DNA of 64,000 nucleotides from an uncultured Methanomassiliicoccales archaeon (GCA_964396265.1 CAYNEM010000008.1:72500-136499), one strand, 5' to 3'. Counted from the stretch's first letter, positions 13,096 to 49,259 are shown. The notes: a model not told the origin generated them from the sequence alone. Made by a program: numbers and translations.

Positions 13096-13118
13096 CTGAG
13101 ATAACCGAGAAAGGCCCC

Positions 13119-13125
13119 TTAAATA
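13119..13125. promoter_or_regulatory. TATA-like box (TTAAATA) in the 73-bp divergent intergenic region between two giant genes
   Basis: The A/T-rich element ccTTAAATAgcg is the only such element between minus-strand start 13095 and plus-strand start 13169. It lies ~44 nt upstream of GTG 13169. Confidence 0.4.
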
Positions 13126-13168
13126 GCGAGCCGACCCGTGAAAAGGTAGCCAGTCTCCCGGGGAGAGT

Positions 13169-28970: not shown

Positions 28971-30104
28971 ATGCGCATCGGGCTCGTGGCCCCTTGGTTC
29001 CATCCGCACGTCGGCGGCGTCGAGACGCACGTCCGGAGTATGGCAGCGGAACTCGCGAGGCGCGGCCATGAGGTCACCGTCCTCACGAGCAACTACGCGA
29101 AGCTGCCCCCGGAGGAGACGTTTGACGGGTTCCATGTGCGGCGCGTCCGGTGCATGGGCGTCGTCCTTCGCACGCCCGTGACGCCGGCCCTCCGACGGGA
29201 GTTCCCCCCGGGTCGATTCGATATCGTCCACGCGCATTCGCCGCCGCCGCTCTCCGCGTACTACGCCGCCACGGGGTGCGAGCGGTCCCGCACACCGTTT
29301 GTCGTCACGTACCATTGCGATCTCGAGATCCCCACCGCCTACGGCCGAGCGCTCACCTCGTTCTACGCGCGGACCTGGGGCGCGGGCACGATGGCACGCG
29401 CGGCGAAGGTGATCTCCACGACGGAGACGTACGCCGCCACCTCCCGCGCGATCTGGCGGTACAGTCCCCTGGTGATTCCGAACGCGGTCGACCACATGCG
29501 CTTCCGGCCGGACGTCGACGGCGCGCCCGCGCGCGAACGCCTTCACCTGAGGAAAGAGGACCCTGTCGTCTTGTTCGTCGGCCGCGTCGTGCCGCACAAG
29601 GGGATCGAACATCTCGTGGAAGCGGCGAAGTACGTTCCCGAAGCCATGTTCGTCGTCGCCGGGGACGGGCCGTTCCTTCCGACCGTCCGCCGGTTGGCGG
29701 CGTCGTTCGGCGTCGAGGACCGGATCCTCTTCCCCGGGAAGATCGCGTACCGGGACTTGCCGGAGTACTATGCGGCATGCGACGCGTTCGTGCTTCCCTC
29801 CGTCTCCCGATTGGAGGCGTTTGGCATCGTCGCCCTCGAGGCGATGGCCACCGCCAAGCCCGTGGTCGTCACGGACATCCCCGGGGTGCGCGAGGTCGTG
29901 GCGGACGGGGTGGAGGGCCTCCTGGCCGACCCCGTGAACCCGCAGGATCTGGCGGGGAAGATCCTCCGCCTACTGGGAGACCAGGCCCTCCGGCGGCAGA
30001 TGGGCGCGCGCGGTCGCGAGAAGGTAGAGGCGAAGTTCGGGATCCAGCAGGTCGCAGACGCACTGGAGCGCGTGTATCGCGCAATCGAGAGCGAAACGTC
30101 GTGA
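28971..30104 (+). CDS. GT4-family glycosyltransferase
   Basis: N-terminal GT4 domain plus C-terminal Glycos_transf_1 (…LLFVGRVVPHKGIEHLVEA…AFVLPSVSRLEAFGIVALEAMATAKPVVVTDIPG…). Confidence 0.75.
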   Translation: MRIGLVAPWFHPHVGGVETHVRSMAAELARRGHEVTVLTSNYAKLPPEETFDGFHVRRVRCMGVVLRTPVTPALRREFPPGRFDIVHAHSPPPLSAYYAATGCERSRTPFVVTYHCDLEIPTAYGRALTSFYARTWGAGTMARAAKVISTTETYAATSRAIWRYSPLVIPNAVDHMRFRPDVDGAPARERLHLRKEDPVVLFVGRVVPHKGIEHLVEAAKYVPEAMFVVAGDGPFLPTVRRLAASFGVEDRILFPGKIAYRDLPEYYAACDAFVLPSVSRLEAFGIVALEAMATAKPVVVTDIPGVREVVADGVEGLLADPVNPQDLAGKILRLLGDQALRRQMGARGREKVEAKFGIQQVADALERVYRAIESETS

Positions 30105-30260
30105 TTACCACGATGCCTCTCTGGGGCCCTTGTAGTTGACAATTGGTAGGGCGCCTGTCCACTCTTCTGCCGTAATCGGGATGTCTGGTGCAATGTGATG
30201 CGACCGCGCTCAGTCGACCTCATGGAGGTTCCGCGACGCTCTCCGTTACGAAAGCTAGGA

Positions 30261-30599
30261 CTAATCGCCAGGAACTTTGCGTCTCTGACGGAAGATCTCG
30301 ATCAGTAGACCGGTTTTCCGAAGTGTCCGACGGTAGAAGAGAGTGCCGGTGGCCGCAGGCAACAAGAATGGGAGCGGTACGACCCATAGCTGGAAATCGC
30401 CGGAAAACCACCAGCCAGCATACGCGGCCGCGGTGAGTGCGGCGGAAGCGACCCAATACCCCTTAATGAGCGAGGCTACTGCTTCTGCAGAGTCTCGTGT
30501 CGGGGCCTGCTTCCAAAGCCATCGCATTCCTCCTAGGGTCAGGACGAGGACGAGCAGCGTGAGAACGGCGACAATCAAGATCGGTTCAAGCAGGGCCAT
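30261..30599 (-). CDS. Hypothetical membrane protein
   Basis: 3 TM helices; lower-GC region; co-directional and downstream of the giant gene 31181-38736. Confidence 0.4.
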   Translation of the reverse strand: MALLEPILIVAVLTLLVLVLTLGGMRWLWKQAPTRDSAEAVASLIKGYWVASAALTAAAYAGWWFSGDFQLWVVPLPFLLPAATGTLFYRRTLRKTGLLIEIFRQRRKVPGD

Positions 30600-30668
30600 A
30601 CGGTCACCCCAATATTGGGCGGAAGTCCGTAATATTACCGCTGACGCGAGGAAGAGGTGAGGAACACC

Positions 30669-31160
30669 TCACTTTTCTGGCGGGGGGCCCTTGGGAAGGG
30701 CACCGGGGGCGTACTCGACGGCATAGTGTGCGGGGTCGAGTGCCCGTGCGATCAGGAGTTTGAGACCTTCGGGCATCGCCGAAGTCCGGATCGTATTCCG
30801 TCCCTTCCGATGAATGCTCAGCATACTCTGTCGGTCAGTCCAAGTCCATTTGAGGCTCGTAGTGTGTACGGGCGGGACAAGCTCGACCTGGTCAACGGCC
30901 TCCGCGGGAACAACAACCTTGCGCAGGAATGCGTTCATCAACGTAACGCGGCCTGGTTCGATGTCAACGCTCGTGAACACGACGAACGAGAAGCCGATGT
31001 TCAGGAGGAGGAGGACCGCGAGTGCGAGGAGCAAACTGTAGAAAATACCCAGTTGCTGGATTACCCCTGTCGGGATAGACAGCACCATTCCAAGCGCTAG
31101 GCCGCCGACGGTTATCAGGGCCTGGATGTATAGGGCTTGCGGGTTCCCATAGCGGACCAA
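30669..31160 (-). CDS. Hypothetical membrane protein (2-TM hairpin + PH-like soluble domain)
   Basis: Two adjacent TM helices followed by a ~90-aa domain. Same strand and immediately downstream of the giant gene. Confidence 0.4.
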   Translation of the reverse strand: MVRYGNPQALYIQALITVGGLALGMVLSIPTGVIQQLGIFYSLLLALAVLLLLNIGFSFVVFTSVDIEPGRVTLMNAFLRKVVVPAEAVDQVELVPPVHTTSLKWTWTDRQSMLSIHRKGRNTIRTSAMPEGLKLLIARALDPAHYAVEYAPGALPKGPPPEK

Positions 31161-31180
31161 AGCCTCACCCCCGCCTGACC

Positions 31181-34100
31181 TTAAGTTCCGTACACATTCC
31201 TGTAGAAATACCCAGACGCTGAAAGGAACCCCATGAGTGAGGCGATTGCGAAGCCTGTCATAAGTATGCCGTATGCGATCTTGTGCCCTGGCGTGAGAGC
31301 CTTGAGCACGGCTCCGACCGCGGCTTTAGAAGAAAGGATCAGGCCTATATCCGCGAAAGCCATGGCGAGAAGACCTATGGCCACAGCCCCGTCCTGACCA
31401 TCGACCCCTTTGGCAATCGCTCCCACAAGGAAGGTCACGCCCCCAAAGAGCATGGCGATCAGTATTTCCCATTCCACTGCGGGTCCTACGGGGGGAAGGA
31501 GCTTCGTCAGCCAGCCCAAGCCAAGCGTAATGGCGCCGAAGATGAAGAGGGCGCTTCCGTACTTCGTTTGTATCCCTGATAGGAAAGTCCCGACATTCCA
31601 AGGATCGGACTTTGCCGGTTCCTGCGGGAAGAGAGCCATGAAAGCCCCGATGAGAATTACTATAACGAGGCCGGCGACTAACAACCCAAGAGGAGGGATG
31701 CCGTTTATCGCCCACCCTACTCCCACCATGATCAGAAGAATCGCGCTTACGAATATCGCTATCCACGGCATCGCCCGGGCGCTAGTGGCAAGCACCGACG
31801 CCCCGATGTCACGTCCTGTTTCCAAGGCCTGGAGCAGCGCCGCAAAAACCTCATACGTTGCCTTCTTCATTCCCTCGATGGCAGGATTGAAGACGTTGTC
31901 CACGAAAGCGCGCAGAGTCGTCATTACCATGTCGACTATGAACTTGATGACTGCGAGGAGCGCGGCGACGATAGCTTCTGCGATTGCCTTCACGGCCGAG
32001 TACACCGCCTCCACGAAGGCCTTCGCCACGCTCATCGCCCACTGGACAACGGCGGCTGCGACCTGCGAGATGAACACGGCAACCGCGCGGACCGCATTCC
32101 ATAGGAACTGAGCCGCCCCTGCAATTGTATTCCAGAAGGCCCCCCAGAACGAGTTGTCGTGCGGTGGCGGGGCAGTCGGCGGCGTGAAGTTGCCGGTGTT
32201 GAAAACGGCGACGTAGGGGGTCAGTTCCACAACTCGCTGCACGAACCCCATGGTGTAGAACTCGTCCGTGACGTCCATGGAGCGCCCGATCCTCCCAAGG
32301 CTCACGTTGATGAGGAGCAAGTCCAGGAGTTCCTTCGCCTTCACAGCGGTCACGTTGTGGGAGACGATCATCTGAACGACCTTCGCGTTCAGCGCTCGGC
32401 TGTTGGTGTCGTCGTTCCCGATCACGGTCGCGCCCACGAGGGCGGAGTTCTGCACGCCCGCCCACGTGTCGTTCAGGAGCTTGTGGAACTTCGTGTCGAA
32501 GTAGATTCCGCGGGGCACAATGATCGCGTTCATGCCGTTGTCGAAGTACGAGTTTTGGCCAGAGACGTTCAACAGCACGAACACGAACTTTTGCTCGCCT
32601 ACGTATCGGTGCAGACCAGTAGAGCCGTTGAAGATCGTGCTGTAGTCCATCGGGACGATCAGGAGTGTGTTTACCTTCCCGACTTTCATGAGTTGTGCGC
32701 TGTACCCCATCTTCGCGCGGATTGCCTGCGTGCCCTCGGTCTCGAGGTACCCGGTCGCCTGGTCCGCGACGTCGAAAAGGGCGGAGAACTGAGTGGTGCT
32801 CGTGCTCGGCGTGACGTCGATCACGTTTCCGATGTTGTCCCGGACGGTGAAGTTGTAGCTCCACGTGCGGTCCCAGTCCGGGACGTTCACGGAGATGTAG
32901 TGGTCCAGATAGATGTACGTCGTTGGACCGTCGTTCTTCGTGATGGTCCACGTCCCCTCGATCCCGCCGACGGCGTAGTACTTGATCCCCTGCGGCGGGT
33001 TCGGGTACGTGATCCACATCTGGGAGAGACGGAGCTGCAGTACGAGGTCATGGAGGGGGTCCCAATCCAGATAGTCGTTGACGCCGTCCCCATCCGTGTC
33101 GGGGTTCGTCGGATCCGTCCGCTTGGGTCCGACCTCCTCGCCATCAGGGACCTGATCGCCGTCCGTGTCCGGGTTCAAGGGATGGAGGACCCATCCCGTT
33201 GCGCCGTTCTGCTCGTCCCCGTCTTCGATTCCGTCCTCGTCGGTATCCGCCTCGGTCGGCGAAGTCAGCCATCCCGTCTTCGCGACGCTCACGGAGGTGA
33301 CGGAGAGGGATCCGACAGCTTCTTGGATCGACACGCGGAGCGAGTTGTGCCCCTTCACGAGACGGGCGGAGAACGAGGCCGCCTGCGTCCACTGGACGAA
33401 GCTGGCGTATTTCCACGAGGGCATTCCATTCACGTAAATCAGCGCCGTGGCGGCCTTCCCGGACGCGGGGTAGCCGGTCGTCCCCAGCGAGAACTCGTAC
33501 GTCCCGGATTCTCCGACCGTGAGGTTCAGGGTGTAGTTCGATGACGGGGTCACGGTACGCGTCACCGCGTCGGCGTACGCGAAGCTGTACAGCTCCTCGT
33601 GGTCCGTCAGGCCGTCGAAGTCCGTGTCGCGATTGAGCGGGTCCGTAGGGTAGAGGTTGAAAGTGACTGGGGATGTGAAGCTCGAGCTGCCGAACCTGTG
33701 CTCCTCCAGCTCGCACGTCTCGAACCAGTCGCCCCAACCGTCCGCGTCCGAGTCGTTCGACAGCAGGTCGGTCGTGTCGCGCGCGTACCTGATCGCCGTC
33801 ACGGTGATGGAGCCGCCGCCCGTGTACCAAAGGCCCAAGTAATGCGTGCGGCCGCACATCGAGCCGTTCACGTACGCGGTCCCAACCCACGGCCCGACCA
33901 ACTCGAGTTTCCGGACGGAGTCGACCTCGATGATCATCTTCCCGTCCAAGGAGGAGCTGTCGATCTCGAAAGTGTACCGCCCGGGGCCGGACACGTTGAA
34001 GGCCAGGACCTTCGAATACGTCAGGGAGAACGCCGTCTCGTCCACATACGCGTATCCGTAGGTCTCCTGGAAATCTGACAGCCTGTCGAGGTCCTGGTCG

Positions 34101-37100
34101 GGGTACGCCGACAGGGCGTCGAGGAGTACAGCGACCGTAAACTGGAATCGAGCGTTCACGTTCGCGTTCCCATACCAGTCTGCGAACCAAGCGCGGTTCG
34201 CGGTCACCTGGGCGGTTCTCCACGTGGAGTCCCCCTCGAGCGGGCCGATCGTTTGCCACCCGGAGCCGTCCCACTGCTGGATCGAACCCGCCTGCGAGGC
34301 CTGGTAGGTGACCGCCAGCGTGTAGTTGGCCGAGAGGATGGGCGAATTAATGTAGATGTCCGCGAAGGCAGCCCCGGACCGAACGGTCCGCCCGGACGCG
34401 AAGTCCGAAGTCGGAGCCCCCCACTCCTGGTTCAGCGGGTGCACGAGGATCGTGATGCCCGGGTCGTGGACGCCGAGGTCCCCGTCGTCCGACTGTCCGC
34501 TAAGGGGCGTTCCAACGTTGTCCTCGAACGCCGACCACGCGACTGCGATCGAGCTCACCTCATTGGCGGGGGCCGCAACGCGCAGCTTCACATTGACCCC
34601 AGGCAGTGCGCTCGCATCCGCGTACGCCTTCGTGTCCGTGGAGAGGGCGGCGCCGCTCGTGTAGTTGCCCAGCCTGCCGATCTTCGTCCACGCGATCCCA
34701 GTCCACTGCTCGACCCACACCGGGTTGCCCGTCCCGTTGAAGGTGAACGAGAGGAGGTAGGCCGTGTCCGGGTCAGGGACCGTTAGGAAGAACTCCGCAC
34801 CCGTCGTCGCGTTCTTGTACGGCATCCCTTCGTCCATCCACCCCGTGCCAAGGAGGACGCCGGGCACGTGGAAGCGGTCGTCGGTGTCGTCGCTCCCGCT
34901 CCCGACATACGTGCGGTATCCGAAGGCGACCGCAGAGATCCGGTCCACTTGCACGGTCGCGGAGAACCGCAGGGCGACGTTCATGCCGGGAATCGCGGAC
35001 CGGGCATCGGACAGCTGCGTGCTCGAGATCCGGAAGGAGTGCGCCCACCAGTTCCCTTTCCCAGGCATCGTGGAGAGGACGGCCCATCCTCCCCCGTTGT
35101 TCACGGAGACGTTCACGTCGGCGGAGGCGTAGTACTGGACCGTGATCAGGTAGTCCGTGTATCGCTGGGACGTGTAGTTGTAGAGGTTCAGGAGGAACGT
35201 AGCGTTCGTCGAGGCCTGCCGGTAGTCCGGGTTCCCATCCAGCTGGTCCCACGTCGCGGTCGAGGCGTACGGGGACAGGGTCGAGCTTCCCCACCCTGCG
35301 GCGAGGTCTAGGCTCATGCCGGGCAGGTGGGAGTATGCGTCCCCGTCGCCCGACTTGCCCACGTCGAGGAACAGTTGATCCACGTCTCCCCCGGTGAGGT
35401 TGAGCTCGAGGTCCCAAATGCCGTAGTAGGTTCCCGAGACGTAGGTCGCCCGCACCGCCCAGGAGCCTTCGACGCCCGCGAGGGCGGACACCGTTTCCAT
35501 GGCGGAACCAGGAAGCGCCGAGGATGCGACAAGTCCCCCCGAGGGGTCGTACAATCGAAGGTCGAAGTTGTACGTCGCCGGCGGCCAAAGGGATGCGCGG
35601 ACGAGCTGACCAGGCCGAACCCACACTTTCATGTAGTCGTCGAGGTCGACGCCCTGTTCGAGCTGTCCCTTCCAACGGCCCGGGGCGATCTGCAGCGCCC
35701 CTGCGAACGTCGGCGCCGCATCCACATCACGATCCGCATCGTTCGGGGCGTACTTCGTCGTGAGCGACCCGATTCCGGCGTTGATCCGGTCGTTCGGGTT
35801 GGTCAGGGATGCGGACGTGGCGGTGAATTGATAGGTCGTCAAGGGTAGCAAGCCGGTCGCGTTCAACGAATGGCCGGTCCCGCTCCCCGCCGTCCTCGTG
35901 TAGCAATCCAGAGGATATCCCGATCGGCAGACCCAGACCTCGGTCGTGCCTGAAATCGTCGTGTTCCAGTAGAACCATGCGTAGCGCGCCTGAGGAACGA
36001 CATTGAACGCGCCCGCGAGGCCGATGCCTTTCGTCGTGAACGTGCGGTTGCTCACCTTTGCCACATCGTTGGAATTCGAGAGCGAGGCCGACTCGATGCG
36101 GAAATGATAGGTCGTACCGCTCTGCAGGTTCGTGAGGGACACGGTGTGTGACGTGCCGTCCGCCCCGGTCGCGGTGTGTGTGTACTGCTCGGTCTCCGTG
36201 ATTCCGTACTTCACGACGGACGTCGCGGGCCGCGGGACGGACCACGACGAATCGCCGACGTACGTGTCCCAGGTGAGCGTGGCGGTAGTCTCCGTCACGG
36301 TCGCGACTTGCCAGTTCCGTATCGCGATGTGCGGTACCGACAGGGGGCCGCCTGTCGTGTTGACGGAGTCCGTTGAGTCCGTGAGCGAGACGGATTTCGC
36401 GCGGAAGTAGATCGTCGTCCCCGTGGGCGGGTTTGTAAGCGTGACGTAATGCGACGTCCCGTCGGCGCCCGTCGCCGTCTGACCGTACGACTCCGTCTGG
36501 CCCCAATCGAGGACGCTCGTCCCCGCGATGTTCGTGTTCCACGTGACTGTGAAGCCGAAATCCGTCACGGTGGAGAACCAGCCCACGGAAACGCCCAGGA
36601 TGGTGATACCCGTGTGGAACGTCCGCTCGCCGCTCTGCGCCTTCATCGTCGAATCATCGACGGCGACGGACTCCACGAAGAAATAGTACTTCGTCTTCGG
36701 CGTCAGCCCCGTGAGGGGGATGCTGTGAGTGCTCCCGGTCGGCCCGGTCGCCGTCTGTCCGTAGTTGTTGGTCGTGCCGTAGTACACCTTGCCGGTCGCC
36801 ACGAGGTTCGAGTCCCACTTGATCGTCGCGGACGTGTAAGTTACGCCCTCGACGCGCAAGTCGCGGATCTGGACCGTGGTCGCAAAGGTCGCGTTCTCGG
36901 ACCACGCGGTCCGTCCGCTCCGGAGGACGCCGCCAATCTTGTAGAAGTATTCGGATCCGGTGACGAGGCTCGTCAGGACGACGGAGTATGGGGTCGTGTT
37001 GTCCCATTTTCGGAGGGGCGGTTGTTCCCAGAGCCAGTAGTCGACCCAGCTCGACAGGACCGGCGTGAACCCCGCGATGGTCTCGAAGCGCCACGTGACC

Positions 37101-38736
37101 CGCGCGGAGGTCGAGGTGATCTCGGTGACCTCGTGATCGATGGCGACGACGTCGTCTCCGGGGATGGGACCCGGGATCTGCGGCGGGTCGTCCTCCGGTG
37201 GGATATTCCCTGCGCGGGTGCCAATCTGGCCCGGGGCGTTGCGGGGAATCAGATCCCTGATGAGGAGGTCGACGAGGGGGAGCAGGTGATCCTGGGCCTC
37301 GCGGTCCACGAGGAGGTCGTCCCTCGGGTCGCCGCCTGCGGTTCCGTCCATCCGCTGACGGAGATCCCCGAGCGTCTGGACCGCTCCCCGGTTCTCCCCT
37401 GCCGCAATCTGCTTGGCAGCCATGTCGACCCTCCCGAGCAGGGCCGCCTTCGACTGCACCTGCGGCGGCGCGAAGGCGTCCAAGGGGAGTCGCCTCAGGT
37501 ACGTCCCGACGCTCCGGATGCTCGGCTTCGTGAGCCCCGCGTCGGTGTCGCCGTAGATCTCCGGCTCCCCGTCTCGGGCATCTTGCCACGCGACGAACGC
37601 AACGTCCTTCGAACGACGAGGCTCGGGGCCTCCGCCGCGGATCGCGTGTGCGTGATTCGCTGCGCGCGGAGGTTCGGGTCTCCGTTGGGAGCGAGCCCGC
37701 GGGAGAACACCTGCCACACGCCGGTCCGGGAATCCTGCCACGCGACGCGGACCCGCCCCGTCGCGTTCAGCGCGACGCTCGGCTGGCGCGCGTCGGAGTC
37801 TCCCGGGGTCAGTGGCCCCGACGATGTCCACGATGCCCCTGCATCCGCGCTGAACGCAGTGCGGACTTGGTAGTGACCGAACCGGTTGTCGCTCCACGCA
37901 AGTTGGAGATGGGGCCCCGCGGCCAAGGAGAGGGAGGCGGGGTCGAGGGAGCCTTGGAAGATGGTGATCGAGGAAGGGGATCCCGTCGCTCCCGACCCTA
38001 GATTCACCGAGACATGCACAAGGGCGGTCGCTTCCTCCACGCGCTCGTCCCACACGACATGGAGCCGGCCGCTGCGGACGACCGTCTCGACATCCGCGGC
38101 CCTTGCGGAGAAGGCGGTCAGGGCCGTCGCGTTCCCCACGGTGGTCCCCATGTGCTCGACCATGACGCTCCGAATCGCGGTCCCGTTCGGACTGTGCCAA
38201 AGGAATGTGAGGATGGCCCGATCTCCGACGACTTGGACATCGGGGGCCCAACCCGCCCCGACGAGGATCTGAGGGGTCCATCGCTGACCATCGGGTGAAA
38301 ACATGTAGAACGTGGAGCGGGTCGGCTGCCCGTCAATCGTCGCCAGGGCGTCCCATGCGAGGGCGACCGCCCGGTTGTCCGCGCCGATGCTGAGGTTTCC
38401 CGGGCTCGCGGGGGCGGCCAACGAACGGTCCGACGAGAATGTCCGACCTCCGTCGGCGGTCGCCTTGTGGAAAACGTGAAGCGAGCCCGAGCGTCCGTCG
38501 AGCCAACCGAGATGGATTGCCTCCGTCCCCGCGGCGAGCTCCGGGACAAGGGAAGAGCCCGCGGCGAGCGTAAGCCTCCGCCCGTTCTCGAGGGAGGCGT
38601 CCGGCGCATCCCCAAGGGGCGGGGCGCTCGTAGGAGTCGTACCTCCCTGTAGGCTTGAAAACGTCACCGAGACGACCACGAATGCGCAGAACAGGGCACC
38701 TAGTTTCAGACCGGATCCGACCGACAGCCACCGCAT
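31181..38736 (-). CDS. Giant surface protein (~2500 aa) with apparent internal -1 frameshift: signal peptide, BNR/Asp-box beta-propeller, >=5 fibronectin-III-like domains, PPC-like domain, thrombospondin-type-3 Ca-binding repeats, C-terminal ~10-TM polytopic membrane domain
   Basis: N-terminal part in frame A (38736-37495): signal peptide MRWLSVGSGLKLGALFCAFVVVSVTF and Asp-box-like repeats (…VRVAWQDSRTGVWQV…). The rest is in frame B (38281-31181): KDVAFVAWQDARDGEPEIYGD; FN3-like units (…TIKWDSNLVATGKVYYGTTNNYGQTATGPTGSTHSIPLTGLTPKTKYYFFVESV…, repeated with TGADGTSH motifs); TSP3-like DTDEDGIEDGDE / DPTNPDTDGDGVNDYLDWDP. The C-terminal 450 aa hold ~10 hydrophobic helices. Both frames are protein-like around 37600-37750; the junction is near a G/C homopolymer (~37625-37630). 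Confidence 0.65.
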
Positions 38737-39334
38737 GACGCTTACCTCCTCCGCCCTCCTACGACGAGGGAGGGCAGCTGTGGATGCTCCCTCCGGGATA
38801 TAAAGCAAGGGTGGAACATGTTCCGATTTTCAGAGAATTCCGCCACCAAGGTCGTCCTCATGACTCAGCGTTGAAGTCTGTCTGGACGGTGGGGCGGATT
38901 GACCTTCTCGGATGCACATTCCTTCGGCTTCTCCGAGACAGTGCGGACGCTCCTCGACGAGGAGCGCCGCGCGCTCGACAAGTGCCGGCCAGCACCTCCC
39001 CTCTCCAACTATGAGACCGCCAACGCCAGGACTTCGCTGCAAGGAGACTCCCTTTCGAGCGCCGCGATCGTCAGACCGGTCCACACCAGGATCCTCCCAT
39101 CCCGGATGAGGTAGAACTCTCCGTAGTCGTACAGCCGAACGCTCCGATCCAACTCACGGGTGACTCGTCTGCACATACACCAATCCGCGCGAGGATTATC
39201 CTCCTTCACTCTCATCCGATGCGGACGTGCATGCAGAGGGAGGGTAGGACGTCTTCAGCGCGTACTCACAACTCCCCCCTTCGGGTTCGTCGCGTTGCGC
39301 ATCGGACTACCGCCTGTCCACACCAAATCCCGTG

Positions 39335-39712
39335 CTAGGCCACAACCTCGAGGGGCCACGGCCTCCCGTAGTGGTCGTACGCCCGCCATGTGTCGTTTGC
39401 GTACGGCATCCCGGTGATGATGTGAATTCTTCCGAAGTGCGAGAACAGCTGGAGGTCCGCTTCCGACGGGTTGTAGTTCCCGCTCGGGTGGGAGTGGATC
39501 GTGCCGACGACGGAGAAGTCGATCGGGAGCATGTGGAGCTGGAAGATCGCGTGCACGTCCCCGGAGACCGTGCCGGGCAGGAGGAGGATCTCCTCGATCA
39601 CTCCCTCCTCGGCCCGGAGGATCGCGGCGAACTCCTTCGGGTACGTGTCCTTCGACGCTTCGAGAATCATCCGGAGGGTCTTGCGGCGGATCCCGTAGAC
39701 CTTCTTCGCCAT
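39335..39712 (-). CDS. JAMM/MPN+ family metalloprotease (JAB domain)
   Basis: EEILLLPGTVSGDVHAIF...GTIHSHPSGNYNPSEADL carries the JAMM motif HxHx7Sx2D. Confidence 0.8.
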   Translation of the reverse strand: MAKKVYGIRRKTLRMILEASKDTYPKEFAAILRAEEGVIEEILLLPGTVSGDVHAIFQLHMLPIDFSVVGTIHSHPSGNYNPSEADLQLFSHFGRIHIITGMPYANDTWRAYDHYGRPWPLEVVA

Positions 39713-41758: not shown

Positions 41759-44700
41759 GTGCGGGGCAGCGTTTCGCTCATCCTCGTCATCTTGGCCTTC
41801 GCAGCGCTCGCCCCGGGGTTCGCCGGAGCCGCGGACGATTTTCCTTCCTTGTCGTCGGCCAGCATTGCACCCACATCGATCCCTCCGATTCCCGCATCCG
41901 GCGATGGATCCCCCGGCACGACGATCCCGCCGATCCCTTCGCCCCTCGATGCGCCGTTCGGACCAAACGTGCGTGTGAGCGAGACGGACACCTCGGGGAA
42001 CCAGAACGAGATCACGATGGCGGTCGCCTCGGACGGGCGGATCCACATGGGTTGGAACGACGCCCGAGCTCCGAACCCGGACTACCGCTGCGGGTACTCG
42101 TACTCGACCGACGGGGGCATAACGTGGTCCGCGAACCGGCTTCTCCACCTCGATCCCTGGGAGGCCGACGGGGACCCGTTCGTCATGGTGGACTCCAACG
42201 ACGACGTGTACTTCATCTGCATGCCGTTCAACCGCACGGCAGGCGGCTCGCGGATCGTCGTCTATAAGTCCACGGACGGCGGCGTCACGTTCGCGCCGCC
42301 AGTGATTGCGAGCGACACGACGAACGGGTTCAACGACAAGCCCTGGGCGCACGCGGTCGGGACCGTCCTCCACGTCTGCTACGCGAACTTCGCGGGGGGC
42401 ACGGAGCTCCGGTACACGCGGTCGACGGACGGCGGGCAGACCTGGGCGCCGACGCGCATCCTCGACCGGAACGGGAACGGTTGCGTGTTCGCCTCCAGCG
42501 CCGCCGGGATGCTGTATCTCGGGTGGGTCCGCGGTGGCGGCATCTACGTGCTCTCCTCCTTCGACGGCGGCGCGAGCTGGTCTGTCCCCCGGTTTGCGGG
42601 GGCGGCTCCCTTCACCGGAGCCGGGGACCAGCGGGCCGGCCCGCTGCCGGCAATCGCGGCGGACTGGATCGGCGGGAACGTGTACGTCGTGTGGACCGCG
42701 GACGACGGCCTGGGGGCGTGGGACGTCCTCCTCTCGCGTTCGAGTGACAACGGGGTGACGTGGTCCGCCCCCGTCACTCCGAGCGACGATTCCAACGGCC
42801 GCCAATTCATGCCCGGCATCGGCGTCGACGCGGGCGGGATGGTCCACGTGTCCTGGTACGATTCCCGGACAGGATTGATGACGTACCGCTACGCGGCGTC
42901 GGCGAACGGGGGCCGGGATTGGATCCCCAGCTTCCGGGTGACGGACACGGAATGGGTCTCACAGTTCTTCATCGGGGACTACACGACGCTCGTCGCGGAC
43001 TCCTTCGGATACGTCAACTGCGCATGGGCGGACGCGCGGAGCGGCGAGGTTGAGGCTTATTTTGCTCGTGCGATCCCACCCGGTCCTCCCACGCTCTCGC
43101 GCATTGAGGTTACGCCGCCCGAGGCGTGGACGGACACGGACACGCCGGTCATGTTCACCGCCCTGGGCTATGACCAATTCGGCAGCCCGTACCCCTCGTT
43201 CCCCGCGTGGCAGGCGACGGGAGGGTCCATCGTCGGCGGCGCCTACATCCCGCAGGTCGCGGGAGATTGGCAGGTGTGGGCGAACCAGAGCGGCGTCTCC
43301 GGGTCCGCCGTCGTCCACGTCTCCCCGGGCGGCCTCGCGCGGATTGCGATCGACCCTGCGAGCGCGACCCTCACCGCAGACGACACGGTCCAGTTCACCG
43401 CCACGGGCTACGACGCCCGGGACAATGTCGTCGCCATCGTCCCGTCGTGGGCGTCCACGAACGGTTCCGTCAGTGCCGGCCTCTTCACGCCCTATCGTAT
43501 GGGGACGTGGGCGGTCTTCGCGAACGCCAGCGGGATTTCCGGCTCCGCCCCGGTCACCGTGCTCCCCGGCGCATTGGCGGCGATTGACGTCACGCCTCCA
43601 GTGGCGGCGATGACCGCGGACGAGGTGCTCGACTTCGATGCCACGGGACGCGACGCGAAGGGGAATCCCGTGCCGGTGTCCCCGCGCTGGTCGTCGGGCG
43701 GCGGCACGATCGATGCGCAGGGGTTTTACGACGCCCATGCGGTCGGCGTCTGGGATGTCCGGGCGGAGGCCTTCGGCGTTGCCGGGCTCGCCCAAGTCAC
43801 GGTGGTGCCCGGCGCCCTCGCGCTCATCGAAGTGACGCCGGCGAGCGTGGTGATCACCGCCGATGAGGTCGCGTCCTTCGCGGCACAGGGATTCGACGCG
43901 GATGGGAACTCCGTCGCGATCACGCCCGCATGGTCCACGGACGCGGGTTCGGTCTCCACGGCGGGCCTGTACACGCCGGGCCCCGTCGGCGCGCATGTCG
44001 TGATCGCGGCCGTCGGCTTCGTCTCAGGGCTGGCGACCGTCGCGGTCTTCCCGGGCGCCTTGGCCCGAATTGATGTCGATCCACCGGCTCCCACGATCAC
44101 CGCGGACCAGACCGTAGATCTCGTCGCGACGGGCTACGACGCCAAGGGGAATCGCATGGGCGCCGTCTTCCTCTGGGAGGCCATGTGCGGAATCGTCACG
44201 CAATCCGGGCGGTTCGAACCCGCCCTTGCCGGGGTGTGCGTGGTCTACGCGAACGCGTCCGGGGTCTCGGGGAGTGCCGCCATCACGGTCGTCCCCGGCC
44301 TCCTCGCGCGATTGGACGTCACGCCGCCAACGATCACGATTACCGCCGACGAGACCGCGCAATTCTCCGTCCGAGGATTCGACGCGAAGGGGAACGAGGT
44401 CCCTGCGGCGCCCCTCTGGACCGCGGACGCGGGAGGCATCAGCTCATCCGGGCGATACAGCCCCACGATCCGGGGGACGTGGGCGGTCCTTGCGCAGGAG
44501 GGGCTCGTGGTCGGCAGCGCCCAGGTGACCGTCGTCCCCGGGGCTCTCGTTCGCATCGTGGTCGTCCCGGACCTTGTGACGATCCGCTCGGACGAGACCG
44601 CTACGTTCTCCGCGGTGGGGATGGACCGCGCGGGCAACGAGGTCGTGCTCGGCACCGTCGTCTGGTCCACGACGAACGGGACCATCGAGGGCGGCCGGTT

Positions 44701-45199: not shown

Positions 45200-46864
45200 A
45201 TGATGCCCAGTGGAACACCGATCTTTGTACTGAAAGAGGGAACGCGCCGCGAGCGTGGAAAGGGAGCGCAGTTCAACAACATCGCCGCCGCACGCGCGGT
45301 GGCCGACGCGGTCCGCTCCACGCTGGGTCCGCGCGGGATGGACAAGATGCTCGTCGACAGCCTCGGGGACGTCGTGATCACGAACGACGGGGTCACGATC
45401 CTCAAGGAGATCGACATCGAACACCCGGCCGCCAAGATGATCGTCGAGGTCGCGAAGACGCAGGACCAGGAGGCAGGGGACGGGACCACGACGGCGGTGA
45501 TCCTTGCGGGAGAACTGCTCAAGAAGGCCGAGGAGATGATCGAGCAGAACATCCATCCGACTGTCATCGCGCAGGGCTACCGCGTGGCGTCGGAGAAGGC
45601 GAACGCGATCGTGGAGAAGGTCGCCCGGCCGGTCACGCCGAAGGACCGCGAGATCCTCATCAAGATTGCACGGACCGCGATGTCGAGCAAATCCGCCAGC
45701 TCACACTCCGAGATGCTGTCCGAGGTGTGCGTCAAGGCGGTCACGATGGTCGCAGAGGAGCGCGACGGCAAGTGGGTCGTGGACGAGGACAACATCCAGG
45801 TCACGAAGAAGCAGGGCGGCTCGATCGCCGACACGCAGCTCGTCGAAGGGATCATCTGCGACAAGGAGCGGGTGCACCCGGGGATGCCGCAGCAGGTCGA
45901 GGGCGCGAAGATCGCCCTCGTGGACGCGGCCCTCGAGGTCAAGAAGACGGAAATCGACGCGAAGATCGAGATCACGGATCCGAACCAGCTCCAGGCGTTC
46001 CTGAACGAGGAGGAGAACGTGCTGCGGAAGATGGTCGAGCAGGTGAAGAAGAGCGGCGCGAACGCGCTGTTCTGCCAGAAGGGCATTGACGACCTCGTCC
46101 AGCACTACCTCGCGAAGGCGGGCATCTACGCGGTGCGCCGCGTGAAGAAGTCCGACATGGAGAAGCTCGCGAAGGCCACGGGCGGCCACATCGTCACGAA
46201 GCTCGACGAGCTCGCGAAGGAGGACCTCGGCAACGCGAAGCTCGTGTACGAGAAGAAGATTGGCGATGACGAGATGACGTTCGTCACGGGCTGCAAGAAC
46301 CCGAAGGCCGTGTCCATCCTCATCCGTGGCGGCACGGAGCACGTCGTGGACGAGCTCGAGCGAAGCCTTGAGGACGCGACGAGCGTGGTCGCGGTCGCGG
46401 TCGAGGACGGCAAGTTCATCACCGGCGCAGGCTCGACGGCGATGGAGATCGCCCTCGGGCTGCGGGACTACGCGGCGACGGTCGGCGGCCGGGAGCAGAT
46501 CGCGATCGAGGCGTTCGCGGAAGCGGTGGAAGTCGTGCCGCGCACCCTCGCTGAGAACGCGGGCCTCGACCCTATCGACACGCTTATCGATCTGAGGAAG
46601 GAGCACAAGAAGGGCCACAAGCACGCGGGGATCAACGTCTTCACCGGCAAGGTCGAGGACGCGCTGAAGAACAACGTGCTCGAGCCGATCCGGGTGGGCT
46701 CTCAGGCGATCAGCTCCGCCACGGATGCCGCGATCATGATCCTGAGGATTGACGACGTCATCGCCGCGAAGTCGGGCGGCGGCGGGGGCGGCGGCGGGGG
46801 CGGCGCCGGGGGCAAGGGCGGCGCCGGCGGCGACGACCACGACGGCGGCGGCGAGGACTACTAG
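45200..46864 (+). CDS. ths: Thermosome subunit (group II chaperonin, Cpn60/TCP-1 family)
   Basis: …[38 protein letters not shown]…[15 protein letters not shown]… is a full-length match. Gly-rich C-terminal tail. Confidence 0.92.
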
Positions 46865-46902: not shown

Positions 46903-47421
46903 ATGAGCGAGGAGCGCACGGAAGCCCAGACGGCAGAGCCTGCGGCCCCCGAGGTGGATGCCGAGATCGCACGCCTCCGCTCCGAACTCCAGGTGACAAC
47001 CGAGCGCGCGACTGAGCTGCTCGATCGCGCCCGGCGTGCGCAGGCGGATTACGAGAACCTCCAGAAGCGCACCGCGCGGGAGGCGGAGGAGGTCCGCGAG
47101 GTGGCGAACGAGAGCCTCCTCGCTTCCCTCCTCCCTCTCCTCGACGACTTCGACAGCGCGGTGGCCGCCATCCCGGGCGAGGCGGGGGAGGGCGTGCGTA
47201 TGCTCCGGGAGAAGCTGTGGGGCGTGCTCGCGGACGCGGGCCTCGAAGCCGTGAACCCCGCGAAGGAATCGTTCAACCCGTACGAGCACGAGGTCGTCGG
47301 GCGGGCGAACGACGAGGATTTAAGCGACGGAACCGTGAGGGAAGTCGTGCAGAGGGGATACCGGTACCGCCGGCGCCTCCTCCGGCCCGCGAAGGTCATC
47401 GTGGTCAAGCGAGGTGAGTAG
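46903..47421 (+). CDS. grpE: Nucleotide exchange factor GrpE
   Basis: Coiled-coil N-terminus plus [16 protein letters not shown]… GrpE signature. Immediately upstream of dnaK. Confidence 0.85.
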
Positions 47422-47423
47422 CG

Positions 47424-49259
47424 ATGGGAAGGATTGTCGGAATCGACCTGGGAACGACGAACTCGGAAGCCGCGTACATGGAGAGCGGGCAGCCCAAGAT
47501 CATCCCGAGCGCGGAGGGAAGCACGTACGGAGGCAAGATGTTCCCGTCGATCATCGCCTTCACGAAGGACGGTCCCCTGGTCGGCGAGCCCGCGAAGCGG
47601 CAAGCGATCCTGAACCCGGAGCGCACGGTCATGCAGATCAAGCGCAAGATGGGGACGAACTACAAGGTTACAATCGACGACAAGACGTACACGCCGCAGG
47701 AGATCAGCGCGATGGTCCTGCGGAAGATCAGGCAGGATGCCGAGCAGTTCCTCGGGGAGAAGGTGACGCAGGTCGTGATCACCGTCCCCGCGTACTTCAA
47801 CGACAACCAGCGCCAGGCGACGAAAGACGCGGGCCAGATCGCCGGGCTCGAGGTACTGCGCCTCGTGAACGAGCCGACCGCGGCGGCCCTCGCGTACGGC
47901 CTGGACAAGGAGGCGGAAGGCAAGATCTGCGTGCTCGACCTCGGCGGGGGCACCTTCGATGTCACGCTGATGGAGATGGGCGAGGGCGTGTTCGAGGTCG
48001 CCTCGACGTCGGGCGACACGCAGCTTGGCGGCATGGACATGGACAACACGCTCGTCGACTGGCTCGTCGCGGATTTCCGCACGGAGTACGAGGCGGACCT
48101 CCGGCCCGACCGCCAGGCGATGCAACGCGTGCGCGACGCGGCGGAGAAGGCGAAGATCGAGCTCAGCAGCACCGTGAACACGACGCTGAACCTGCCGTTC
48201 ATCACGCAGAAGGCGGGCAAGCCGCTGCACCTGGAAGTTTCGATGACGCGCGCGAAGCTCGAGGAGCTCATCGAGCCCGTCCTCTCGCGGCTCGAGGCTC
48301 CGATCCGCCAGGCGTTCAAGGACGCCGGTTGGGACCCCAAGGAGGTCAACCACATCATCCTCGTCGGCGGGCCGACGCGCATGCCCGTCGTTCGCGACCG
48401 GTTCGAGCGCATCCTCGGGCGCAAGGCCGCGCGCGGCGTCGACCCCATGCAGTGCGTGGCCCTCGGGGCCGCGATCCAGGGCGCGATCCTCTCCGGCGAG
48501 ATCAAGGACATCCTGCTCCTCGACGTGACCCCCCTCAGCCTCGGCGTGGAGACGCTCGGCAGCGTGTTCACGCGCCTCATCGAGAGGAACACGACGATCC
48601 CGACGCGCAAGTCGCAGGTGTTCAGTACTGCCGCGGACGGGCAGACGACCGTCGAGGTCCACGTGCTCCAGGGCGAGCGCCCGATGGCGAGCGACGACGT
48701 GAGCCTCGGGAAGTTCTACCTGAAGGGGCTCCCGCCCGCGCCGCGCGGCATGCCGCAGATCGAAGTGACGTTCGACATCGACGCGAACGGCATGCTGACC
48801 GTGACCGCGAAGGACATGGGCACCGGGAAGTCCGAGAAGCTCACGATCCTCGCGCCGCACCGGATGGAGAAGGGTGCGATCGACAGCGCCGTCCGCGACG
48901 CCGAGCAACATGCGGAGGAGGACCGCCGCCGCCAGGAGTTCGCGGAGCTGAGGAACACGTCCGATGCCCTCCTCTACGAGACGGACAAGCAGCTCAAGGA
49001 GCTCGGTGACAAGGTCAGCGAGGGCACTCGGAAGGGGGTCGAGGCGGCGATGGAGGTCCTGCGCGAGGCCCTGAAGGCGGAGGACTTCGCCGCGCTCAAG
49101 AAAGCCTTCGAAGCATTGAAGCAGGAGACGTTGAAGGTCGGCATCGAGGTCTACCAGCGGTCCCAGGCGACGCCGCCGCCGCAGGAGCCGGGAGATGCCG
49201 CCGGTGGCGGTGCTGCGGACGTCGTCGACGTCGACTACGACGAAGTCAAGAAGGACTGA
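47424..49259 (+). CDS. dnaK: Molecular chaperone DnaK (Hsp70)
   Basis: [11 protein letters not shown]…, DLGGGTFD and [21 protein letters not shown] signatures. Confidence 0.95.

What the first reader, a model, noticed from the sequence alone, without database searches (positions are those of the whole stretch)
30261..38736. Giant extracellular protein anchored by a ~10-helix polytopic C-terminal domain, followed by two small membrane proteins in a lower-GC block
Giant secreted proteins normally end in a single TM or a sortase signal. Here the BNR propeller + FN3 array + PPC + thrombospondin-type-3 Ca-binding repeats end in ~450 aa with ~10 hydrophobic helices (31181-32550). That could be a transporter or channel-like module, or a membrane-embedded anchoring platform. 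Two co-directional small membrane protein genes follow at 30669-31160 and 30261-30599. GC falls to ~50-55% across 30100-32200, versus ~67% elsewhere. The drop may reflect hydrophobic codon bias or foreign origin.
Basis: partly seen in the sequence, partly recalled or inferred. Interest (0 to 1): 0.6.

Follow-up and report, generated by a model that had tools for sequence, protein, structure and literature searches.

The report
Giant archaeal protein, swappable membrane tail
The membrane-spanning tail of this giant archaeal surface protein is probably not a plain anchor or a transporter: it is the hypervariable, horizontally exchanged end of a toxin/immunity-like cassette system, paired with a matching small membrane protein encoded right after it.

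Summary
A gene of about 2,518 codons (38736..31181, minus strand) in an uncultured Thermoplasmata archaeon ends in about 320 hydrophobic residues. Two small membrane-protein genes follow, in a lower-GC block. In this window the gene is broken by a 1-nt deletion at 37607. A 99.94% identical metagenome contig has it intact.

The tail has two parts. A conserved pre-tail module (soluble α/β domain plus two long amphipathic helices) ends at the motif IKFIVD (31931). A variable tail of about 240 aa with about 6 TM helices follows.

An exhaustive profile search finds the module in 448 protein clusters. The tail is nearly always 215-265 aa with 4-6 TM helices, but its sequence is unalignable even between copies whose modules are about 90% identical.

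In related loci the main gene is followed by tandem "orphan" copies (partial module, new tail, new small gene). DNA identity of 85-90% stops within about 35 nt of one junction. In 16 of 18 cases the gene after a tail encodes a protein with 2 TM helices and a β-rich domain.

Tail type and small-protein type co-vary. GC3 falls from about 0.9 to about 0.64 at the junction.

No known transporter, channel or toxin matches by sequence or fold.

Best reading: an archaeal polymorphic membrane-toxin (or identity) system with a cognate partner.

The parts
31181..38736 (-). Giant surface-protein gene. It encodes 2,518 aa when intact. In this window a 1-nt deletion splits it into two frames.
   Evidence: ORFs and translations. 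The intact version is P0006 on L005, which is 99.94% identical in DNA. The ortholog in L003 is 46% identical and is one ORF.
38641..38736 (-). N-terminal signal peptide or signal anchor (MRWLSVGSGLKLGALFCAFVVVSVTFSSLQGG).
   Evidence: Kyte-Doolittle hydrophobic segment at aa 3-32. Read from the translation. No dedicated signal-peptide predictor was available.
37607..37607 (-). Frameshift site. One A is missing relative to L005 (cgAAAg to cgAAg).
   Evidence: Base-by-base comparison of L005 and the window: 5 SNPs and this single indel. Sequence read.
36611..36868 (-). Best-scoring FN3-type domain of the FN3 array.
   Evidence: Pfam Pur_ac_phosph_N (1e-15) and fn3 (5e-8) at P0006 aa 624-709.
33041..33265 (-). 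Asp-rich Ca-binding, thrombospondin-type-3-like repeats.
   Evidence: Only sub-threshold NCBIfam hits (CglD 7e-6, throspo3_MtsC 4e-3) at P0006 aa 1825-1899. DxDxDG-type repeats are visible in the translation.
32150..32683 (-). Conserved pre-tail module, soluble α/β part (motifs GxNAIIVPRG and LDVTDEFYTMGF), followed by a Pro-rich linker.
   Evidence: Conserved in alignments A1, A2 and A3. A profile search found 448 protein clusters. AlphaFold2 pLDDT is about 90 or more for residues 1-155. No Pfam or PDB match.
31931..32149 (-). Conserved Ala/Val-rich amphipathic helices (FWGAFWN ... AVIKFIVD). This is the 3' end of the conserved region and the recombination junction.
   Evidence: Conservation ends at IKFIVD. 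In L003, DNA identity between tandem copies stops within about 35 nt of these codons. Helices of 42 and 66 residues have pLDDT 67-78. There is a weak compositional hit to phage tape-measure proteins.
31184..31930 (-). Hypervariable C-terminal membrane tail: about 249 aa with about 6 TM helices.
   Evidence: KD scan. The family shows constant tail length but unalignable sequence. The only relatives are P0026 and L6_383, at 29-35% identity. GC3 is 0.64.
30669..31160 (-). sm1, the putative cognate partner (immunity-like). It has 2 N-terminal TM helices and a β-rich domain of about 100 aa.
   Evidence: Translation. Architecture. Its homologs lie only after the two tails of the window type in L006 (E 6e-21 and 2e-22). 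A GGTGA motif lies in the 20-nt gap after the giant gene's stop. GC3 is 0.70.
30261..30599 (-). sm2, a small membrane protein (one TM segment by KD scan, about 3 by eye) in the same low-GC3 block. Whether it belongs to the system is uncertain.
   Evidence: Translation. GC3 is 0.64. It is called as a gene on L005. It has no relative among tails, partner proteins or any fetched locus other than the near-identical L005.

Best explanation
The C-terminal domain is the exchangeable "business end" of an archaeal system built like a polymorphic toxin system.

Shown:
- A giant Sec-exported surface protein carries a conserved pre-tail module.
- A hypervariable six-helix membrane domain of fixed length follows it after a sharp junction.
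- The next gene encodes an equally variable small membrane protein (2 TM helices plus a β-rich domain), and its type co-varies with the tail type.
- Related genomes keep tandem orphan cassettes (partial module, alternative tail, alternative partner) that share 85-90% DNA identity with the main gene up to the junction.
- Tail and partner carry a foreign synonymous-site composition.

Inferred:
- Homologous recombination at the module swaps tail/partner pairs.
- The tail is a membrane-active effector, most likely an ionophore- or pore-type toxin, or else a membrane-embedded identity determinant.
- The partner binds and neutralises or recognises only its cognate tail within the membrane.
- Cells carrying different cassettes therefore harm or reject each other.
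- The route by which the tail reaches another cell (contact, vesicles or membrane fusion in these Thermoplasmata) is unknown.
For: (a) Sharp junction. Alignment A1 is conserved up to IKFIVD and unalignable after it. In L003 the DNA identity values are 87.6% over 1,619 nt, 89.5% over 717 nt and 85.5% over 751 nt. The first two matches end within 6 nt of the junction codons and the third about 35 nt further on; no similarity follows any of them.

(b) Family-wide pattern. The module is found in 448 clusters. Of 112 complete tails, 101 are 215-265 aa, and 99 have 4-6 KD-predicted TM helices. Only 6.4% of tail pairs are detectably similar, against 50.6% for the adjacent 150 aa of the module. Pairs with 80-93% identical modules often show no tail similarity.

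(c) Partner gene. In 16 of 18 tails examined, the next gene encodes a protein with 2 TM helices and a β-rich domain. It often overlaps the stop codon of the tail gene.

(d) Co-variation. Tails of the window type occur in L006 as two orphan cassettes, and only those two are followed by sm1 homologs. Across 13 cassettes the Mantel correlation is r=0.93, p=2e-4.

(e) Orphan arrays occur in five independent contigs. The same tail type sits on a full-length gene here and in an orphan cassette elsewhere. This is the pattern described for cdiA-CT/cdiI modules (PMC3150448).

(f) GC3 steps down at the junction in the window, in L003 and in L006.

(g) The same module and tail system sits on different N-terminal scaffolds, from 971 aa to 6,055 aa, with PQQ/PKD, FN3 or Laminin_G domains.

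(h) Functional precedent. CDI ionophore toxins are five-helix membrane bundles. They are polymorphic within one fold and have polymorphic, cognate-specific CdiI immunity proteins sharing about 30% identity (PMC11630599).
Against: - No toxicity or immunity has been tested.
- The tail has no similarity to any known toxin. Its AlphaFold2 model is low-confidence (pLDDT about 47-60).
- Topology is awkward for a delivered toxin. A polytopic C-terminal domain should be inserted into the producer's own membrane by Sec/YidC, at the membrane-proximal end of the protein.
- Unlike classical polymorphic toxins, all tails share one length and one hydropathy profile. That would also fit a structural membrane domain.
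- Co-variation rests mainly on one clade of three cassettes. One pair (L3_P1 and L2_P2) has similar tails but dissimilar partners.
- The window itself has no orphan cassette, and its gene copy is frameshifted.
- Orphan cassettes begin with a Cys/His-rich leader rather than being plainly silent fragments. This is unexplained.
Confidence: 0.6

Rival explanations
1. Non-lethal kin or partner recognition. The tail and the small partner form a membrane-embedded identity pair, comparable to Proteus IdsD/IdsE (from memory). The pair gates adhesion, fusion or exchange between cells displaying the giant protein, without killing.
For: The polymorphism, co-variation and cassette evidence is the same as for the best explanation. 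All tails share one length and one hydropathy profile. No catalytic or charged residues are conserved. This fits a specificity surface on a common scaffold. The large adhesin-like ectodomain (FN3, TSP3-like) suits cell-cell contact.
Against: Orphan arrays and tight effector-partner coupling are best known from toxin/immunity systems (PMC3150448, PMC3482391). It is unclear how two membrane-embedded domains in different cells would meet. Nothing here separates this reading from the toxin reading.
Confidence: 0.17
2. Plain membrane anchor with an accessory protein. The polytopic tail only tethers the ectodomain. The small protein helps insertion or stabilises the tail. The variability reflects weak constraint on TM sequence plus gene duplication.
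For: The tail is at the membrane-proximal end. It has no conserved polar residues. TM anchors evolve fast. The window has no orphan cassette. Another giant protein in the window (7690-13341) also ends in 3 TM helices.
Against: Relaxed constraint predicts gradual decay. It does not predict a step from about 90% DNA identity to none within about 35 nt between tandem copies. It does not predict a GC3 step at the same point in three lineages. It does not predict a downstream gene whose type tracks the tail type. It does not explain retention of complete alternative tail/partner cassettes.
Confidence: 0.13
3. One reading: a physiological transporter or channel module fused to a giant extracellular protein.
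Against: There is no significant match to any transporter or channel family by sequence or fold. No charged or polar residue is conserved in the membrane helices of 111 members. Mean pairwise identity is 15%, with frequent wholesale replacement. This is not expected for a substrate-specific transporter.
Confidence: 0.04
4. In this particular genome the locus is a decaying pseudogene, because the 1-nt deletion at 37607 is real. If so it has no present function.
For: The window's reading frame is broken.
Against: A 99.94% identical contig has the intact gene. The only other differences are 5 SNPs, and there are no further stops over 7.5 kb. The indel lies in a short A run, which is typical of an assembly or sequencing error or a very recent variant.
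Confidence: 0.2

Closest known systems
CDI ionophore toxins (CdiA-CT ionophore domains with CdiI), E. coli and relatives (PMC11630599)
   Same: A very large surface protein has a C-terminal multi-helix, membrane-spanning domain. That domain is polymorphic within one predicted fold. Immunity proteins are polymorphic to a similar degree (about 30% identity within a group) and are cognate-specific. The result is self/nonself discrimination. In the window's tail type, tails are 29-35% identical and partners 35-43% identical.
   Different: There is no sequence or fold homology. There is no CdiB/TPS partner, no FHA repeats, no VENN motif and no separate entry domain. The host is an archaeon with no outer membrane. 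The tail has about 6 helices in about 240 aa rather than 5. The partner has 2 TM helices plus a β-rich domain. The delivery route is unknown.
Polymorphic toxin systems with orphan CT/immunity modules (CDI and Rhs; PMC3150448, PMC3482391)
   Same: The N-terminal and central parts are conserved. There is a sharp switch to a variable C-terminus. A small gene follows immediately. Tandem orphan modules retain 5' homology to the main gene. Modules are orphan in one genome and fused to a full-length gene in another. Composition is distinct.
   Different: The variable domains here are all membrane domains of one length, not an assortment of nucleases, deaminases and so on. No known toxin, immunity, pre-toxin or releasing-peptidase domain is present. 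Orphan cassettes carry a conserved Cys/His leader. Classical polymorphic toxin systems are reported to be rare in archaea (PMC3482391).
TspA/TsaI and other T7SS LXG membrane-depolarising toxins of Staphylococcus aureus (bioRxiv 10.1101/443630 = PMC7456083; PMC9484751)
   Same: A polymorphic membrane-depolarising toxin is neutralised by an immunity protein (TsaI), and the immunity genes evolve by recombination between tandem paralogues. That the toxic part is hydrophobic and C-terminal, and that TsaI is a membrane protein, is from memory.
   Different: The secretion route differs (T7SS, LXG domain). In S. aureus the tandem arrays are of immunity genes, not toxin-plus-immunity cassettes. There is no homology.
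VARTIG modules of Thermococcales (PMC8416519)
   Same: This is an archaeal locus with a large secreted protein whose C-terminal region is hypervariable through recombination. Small, mostly membrane proteins follow it. The authors compare it to polymorphic toxin systems.
   Different: In VARTIG the variable part is an Ig domain, not a polytopic membrane domain. The downstream genes differ. The phylum differs. That study found no counterparts outside Thermococcales.
Membrane proteins with bacterial PH domains in bacteriocin loci (DdE and DdF of enterocin DD14, PMC8657885; Bacillus YdbS/YdbT from memory)
   Same: In the bacteriocin locus, PH-domain proteins are needed for export of a bacteriocin whose intracellular accumulation is toxic to the producer. 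The sm1 model shows 8 short strands and a C-terminal helix after the TM hairpin, which is a PH-like pattern. The 2-TM-plus-β-domain layout of the bacterial proteins is from memory.
   Different: Pfam bPH models do not hit sm1 or any of the six other partners tested, even at E≤10. The model is low-confidence (pLDDT 47). The resemblance is a lead, not a result.

Membership tests
Polymorphic toxin system (sensu Zhang/Aravind 2012, PMC3482391) | Multidomain secreted protein with an N-terminal export signal. | tested here: met
   The N-terminal hydrophobic signal and the large ectodomain were read from the translation and the KD scan. No dedicated predictor was available.
Polymorphic toxin system (sensu Zhang/Aravind 2012, PMC3482391) | Hypervariable C-terminal domain after a conserved region, with a sharp recombination boundary. 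| tested here: met
Polymorphic toxin system (sensu Zhang/Aravind 2012, PMC3482391) | Small gene immediately downstream that varies together with the C-terminal domain (immunity gene). | tested here: met
   Adjacency holds in 18 of 18 tails, and 16 of these partners have the 2-TM-plus-β-domain architecture. Co-variation is shown. The immunity function itself is not testable here.
Polymorphic toxin system (sensu Zhang/Aravind 2012, PMC3482391) | Standalone orphan CT/immunity cassettes downstream. | tested here: inconclusive
   Present in related loci L002, L003, L004, L006, L094 and L095. Absent from this window.
Polymorphic toxin system (sensu Zhang/Aravind 2012, PMC3482391) | The C-terminal domain is toxic and is neutralised by the cognate immunity protein. 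| not testable with these tools
   This needs expression and competition assays.
Polymorphic toxin system (sensu Zhang/Aravind 2012, PMC3482391) | Homology to catalogued toxin, immunity, pre-toxin or releasing-peptidase domains. | tested here: not met
   No hit in Pfam, NCBIfam or PADLOC.
CDI (CdiB/CdiA/CdiI) | TPS secretion domain, FHA repeats, VENN pre-toxin motif and a CdiB transporter. | tested here: not met
   No such Pfam hit in the protein. The host is an archaeon.
   Searches give nothing significant. One search shows that only Pro, Gly and Leu columns are conserved. The tail model is low-confidence, so fold evidence is weak.
Archaeal C-terminal sorting signals (PGF-CTERM/archaeosortase type; features from memory) | A short motif, one TM helix and a basic tail at the extreme C-terminus. 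| tested here: not met
   The C-terminus has about 8 helices over about 320 aa and ends ...FYRNVYGT.
bPH_2 / YdbT-like bacterial PH-domain membrane proteins (for sm1) | Match to the Pfam bPH models; 2 TM helices followed by a PH-fold β-sandwich with a C-terminal helix. | tested here: inconclusive
   No Pfam hit even at E≤10. No PDB sequence hit. The secondary-structure order fits, but pLDDT is 47.
VARTIG (Thermococcales) | arCOG07710 large Ig-domain protein with a hypervariable C-terminal Ig domain. | tested here: not met
   The variable part here is a polytopic membrane domain. The lineage is Thermoplasmata. Compared with the description in PMC8416519.

The most novel reading that the evidence does not exclude
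This is a widespread, so far unannotated, archaea-specific system of intercellular conflict or kin discrimination with no homology to bacterial CDI, Rhs, T6SS or T7SS. Giant surface proteins would present a hypervariable six-helix membrane domain that acts as an ionophore in the membranes of neighbouring cells. It could reach them by direct membrane contact, by vesicles or by cell fusion in Thermoplasmata. Each variant would be neutralised only by its cognate partner protein (2 TM helices plus a β-rich domain). Arrays of orphan cassettes with zinc-ribbon-like leaders would serve as a switchable arsenal.
Probability: 0.35. Interest if true: 0.85.

Novelty: new variant of a known kind. Interest (0 to 1): 0.72.

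Why it matters
Classical polymorphic toxin systems are reported to be scarce in archaea (PMC3482391). How uncultured Thermoplasmata compete with, or recognise, each other is essentially unknown.

This locus points to a family of at least 448 protein clusters. It has the full genetic grammar of a polymorphic effector/immunity system but is built from uncharacterised parts:
- a new conserved pre-tail module with a confidently predicted fold that has no PDB match;
- a hypervariable membrane domain;
- a hypervariable small membrane partner.

The family offers a testable entry point into archaeal social interactions: express tail and partner pairs and measure membrane potential. It may also provide a new class of membrane-active domains with programmable cognate inhibitors.

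For annotation, it shows that "PKD repeat protein", "PhoD-like" and "hypothetical" giants in archaeal MAGs can hide a conflict system.

Tried and rejected
- Pfam, NCBIfam and PADLOC scans of the tail, the module, sm1 and sm2 found nothing relevant.
- A PDB sequence search with the module profile gave only weak compositional hits. These were to a phage tape-measure protein and FtbJ (E=1.2e-5) and to designed helical bundles. I treat them as amphipathic-helix composition, not homology.
- The sm1 structure came out at pLDDT 47, too poor for a fold search. Searches for sm1 relatives in the indexed protein database returned only sm1 itself or query members.
- A GTDB genome scan with the module alignment found no relatives, because the search patterns were narrow. 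The broader alignment was too divergent to derive patterns from.
- I looked for orphan cassettes or a second module in the window and found none.
- I tested whether sm2 is a remnant of a tail or a partner. It has no similarity to either.
- The explanation of the GC drop by hydrophobic codon bias is rejected on GC3 evidence.
- The mBio 2019 survey of archaeal polymorphic toxins (Makarova et al.) is not held in the library. I could not check whether this family is listed there.

Full report
**1. What is in the window**

On the minus strand there is an ORF at 31181..38281 (2,366 aa).

The 38736 frame starts with a signal-peptide-like segment (MRWLSVGSGLKLGALFCAFVVVSVTF...). It carries two Asp-box motifs.

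The two frames join only across a frameshift:
- The protein database holds an intact 2,518-aa version, P0006.
- P0006 is encoded on JGI contig Ga0136847_11505922 (L005). L005 is 99.94% identical to window 29168-39565.
- The differences are 5 SNPs and one indel. The window lacks one A at 37607.
- The ortholog in L003 is also a single ORF.

The frameshift is therefore an assembly error or a very recent variant, not a feature of the gene.

Two co-directional small ORFs follow:
- sm1 (30669-31160, 163 aa) has two N-terminal TM helices and a soluble part of about 100 aa.
- sm2 (30261-30599, 112 aa) gives one TM segment by KD scan and about three by eye.

A thermosome gene at 45200-46864 is 82-83% identical to those of uncultured Thermoplasmata MAGs. 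The host is therefore an uncultured Thermoplasmata archaeon.

**2. Anatomy of the C-terminus**

Kyte-Doolittle scanning and an AlphaFold2 model agree on the following order:
- a soluble α/β domain (ORF aa 1867-2020, pLDDT about 90 or more);
- a Pro-rich linker;
- two long Ala/Val-rich amphipathic helices (42 and 66 residues, pLDDT 67-78);
- about six TM helices (pLDDT about 47-60).

The hydrophobic part is about 320 aa with about 8 helices.

**3. The tail is polymorphic**

The first homology search found only four relatives. Their alignment is strongly conserved up to the motif IKFIVD (window codons ending at 31931) and unalignable afterwards.

A profile of the conserved part was searched exhaustively against 1.84 billion representative proteins:
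- 448 clusters at E≤1e-3;
- 172 clusters at E≤1e-10.

Of the 129 listed members in which the end of the module could be placed, 47 are giants of 1,400 aa or more (the longest 6,055 aa) and 76 are shorter than 1,000 aa.

In 112 members with a complete tail:
- median tail length is 238.5 aa, and 101 tails fall within 215-265 aa;
- 99 tails have 4-6 KD-predicted TM helices.

Yet the sequences differ:
- only 6.4% of tail pairs are detectably similar, against 50.6% for the adjacent 150 aa of the module;
- pairs with 80-93% identical modules frequently have no tail similarity at all;
- mean pairwise identity is 15% for tails and 26% for the module.

The aligned tails share a hydropathy profile (a TM1-2 hairpin, TM3, TM4, then TM5-6). 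The only conserved columns are Pro, Gly and Leu. No charged or polar residue is conserved.

Single-linkage clustering at E<1e-3 joins 83 of 111 tails. They probably share one fold that is hypervariable in sequence.

**4. Cassette arrays**

In L003 (JGI Ga0334722_10000423) the order of genes is as follows:
- the 2,540-aa ortholog;
- a 141-aa protein with 2 TM helices;
- P0001 (partial conserved region plus a different tail);
- a 155-aa protein with 2 TM helices;
- P0003 (a shorter conserved part plus a third tail);
- a 166-aa protein with 2 TM helices;
- a further fragment.

At DNA level the copies are 85-90% identical. Two of the three matches end within 6 nt of the IKFIVD codons and the third about 35 nt further on; nothing is similar downstream.

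Comparable arrays occur in L002, L004, L006 (also seen as L007 and L008 in two further samples), L094 and L095.

Of 18 tails examined:
- 16 are followed at once by a protein with 2 TM helices and a β-rich domain, often overlapping the tail gene's stop codon. Many of these proteins share a motif like IP[YW]S.[IM]..V.L.
- 2 are followed by other small polytopic proteins.

**5. Co-variation of tail and partner**

The window's tail has only two relatives, both orphan cassettes in L006. They are P0026 (414 aa) and L6_383, at 29-35% identity over the whole tail. The small proteins after exactly those two cassettes are the only homologs of sm1 (35-43% identity, E 6e-21 and 2e-22).

The other two tails in the same L006 array are followed by unrelated partners.

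Across 13 cassettes, tail and partner similarity matrices correlate (Mantel r=0.93, p=2e-4). This is driven by that one clade, with one weaker second case and one discordant pair.

So one tail/partner type sits on the full-length gene here and in orphan cassettes elsewhere. This is the situation described for cdiA-CT/cdiI modules (PMC3150448).

**6. Composition**

GC in the block is 56-61%, against 65-71% in the flanks. The drop is at synonymous sites:

| Region | GC3 |
|---|---|
| gene body and housekeeping genes | 0.86-0.92 |
| conserved amphipathic part | 0.77 |
| variable tail | 0.64 |
| sm1 | 0.70 |
| sm2 | 0.64 |
| TM-rich 3' end of another giant gene in the window (control) | 0.79 |

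In 50-codon windows the step lies between 31975 and 31750, that is, at the junction. The same step occurs in L003 (0.94 falling to 0.60-0.67) and in L006 (0.83-0.89 falling to 0.62-0.69). The cassette is therefore compositionally foreign. Hydrophobic codon bias is not the cause.

**7. What it is not**

- No Pfam, NCBIfam or PADLOC family matches the module, the tail, sm1 or sm2.
- The module profile hits a phage tape-measure protein at E=1.2e-5, alongside designed helical bundles. I read this as amphipathic-helix composition.
- The sm1 model has the order TM hairpin, eight short strands, C-terminal helix. That order is PH-like, but pLDDT is 47 and no bPH model matches. "PH-like" stays a lead.
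- Source annotations of family members are only "hypothetical protein", "PKD repeat protein" or "PhoD-like".

**8. Interpretation**

Shown:
- a conserved module;
- a sharp junction;
- a fixed-length hypervariable membrane tail;
- a co-varying partner gene directly downstream;
- orphan arrays;
- foreign synonymous-site composition;
- diverse N-terminal scaffolds.

This is the genetic grammar of polymorphic toxin systems (PMC3482391, PMC3150448). The closest functional analogue is the family of CDI ionophore toxins. These are five-helix membrane bundles, polymorphic within one fold, each blocked only by a cognate polymorphic CdiI immunity protein (PMC11630599).

Inferred:
- The tail is a membrane-active effector or an identity determinant.
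- sm1 is its cognate neutraliser or recogniser.
- Recombination at the module swaps the pairs.

Weak points:
- No function has been tested.
- The tail should insert into the producer's own membrane, so the route to a target cell is unknown.
- The uniform tail architecture would also suit a structural domain.
- Co-variation rests mainly on one clade.
- The window has no orphan cassette.

**9. Novelty**

I found no description of this family in the searchable literature. The nearest archaeal analogue is VARTIG. It varies an Ig domain in Thermococcales, and its authors found no counterparts in other archaea (PMC8416519). The 2019 survey of archaeal polymorphic toxins could not be read.

I rate this a new variant of a known kind. 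The logic is that of a polymorphic toxin system, but the parts are new and the host domain is one where such systems are reported to be rare.

Noticed in passing
L002 13532; L003 10025, 13251, 15629; L004 3918; L006 about 11980 (outside the window): Every orphan cassette begins with a short conserved Cys/His-rich leader instead of a signal peptide. Type 1 reads MSGPM..VPACLAC.W...HRLF.HRRG..CPFR. Type 2 reads [TP][AP]CL[AL]C..VHE.PG.C. It looks like a zinc-ribbon knuckle. It could be a real N-terminal domain of independently expressed orphan genes, or a DNA recombination element read in frame.
   Followed up: partly
window 37607: There is a single-base deletion (AAA to AA) relative to a 99.94% identical metagenome contig. 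It splits the giant gene into two frames. It is probably an assembly error or a very recent strain variant.
   Followed up: yes
window 30600-30671: The intergenic region between sm1 and sm2 has a hairpin (GAGGTG..CACCTC) right after the sm1 stop. It also has two palindromes with an AATATT core (GTAATATTAC and CCCAATATTGGG). sm2 may therefore have its own promoter or operator.
   Followed up: no
window 2228-6721 (-): Another giant ORF (1,497 aa) ends in ...VPEPAAVLLPVALMIGLGARLLHRRRLVRNR. This is a PEP-CTERM-like motif, one TM helix and a basic tail, so it is a classical C-terminal sorting-signal type. It contrasts with the polytopic tail studied here.
   Followed up: no
window 7690-13341 (-): A 1,883-aa ORF ends in three predicted TM helices separated by charged loops. 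It lacks the conserved pre-tail module. It is a second giant protein in the window with a multi-helix anchor.
   Followed up: partly
window 13169-20257 (+): A 2,362-aa ORF has an N-terminal TM helix and a TM helix near aa 1546-1568. An extremely E/R/K-rich coiled-coil tail of about 800 aa follows, presumably cytoplasmic.
   Followed up: no
window 47049-48911 (-): This ORF gives a strong Pfam NAD-GH hit (7e-106). It overlaps ORFs of 531 and 611 aa on the opposite strand (47414-49009, 47424-49259). From memory, NAD-GH hits are a known artefact of antisense translation in high-GC DNA. The ORF is probably not a real gene.
   Followed up: no
window 42647-43060 (+) and 11719-12492 (-): There is weak similarity (E 2e-7 to 7e-9) between the Asp-box N-terminal region of the giant protein and two other loci in the window. 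This suggests several BNR/propeller-type surface proteins in this genome.
   Followed up: no
L095 6692-7246; L089 20479-20901: Two tails are followed not by the usual protein with 2 TM helices and a β-rich domain, but by small polytopic proteins (6 TM helices in 185 aa; 4 TM helices in 140 aa). This may be an alternative partner class.
   Followed up: no
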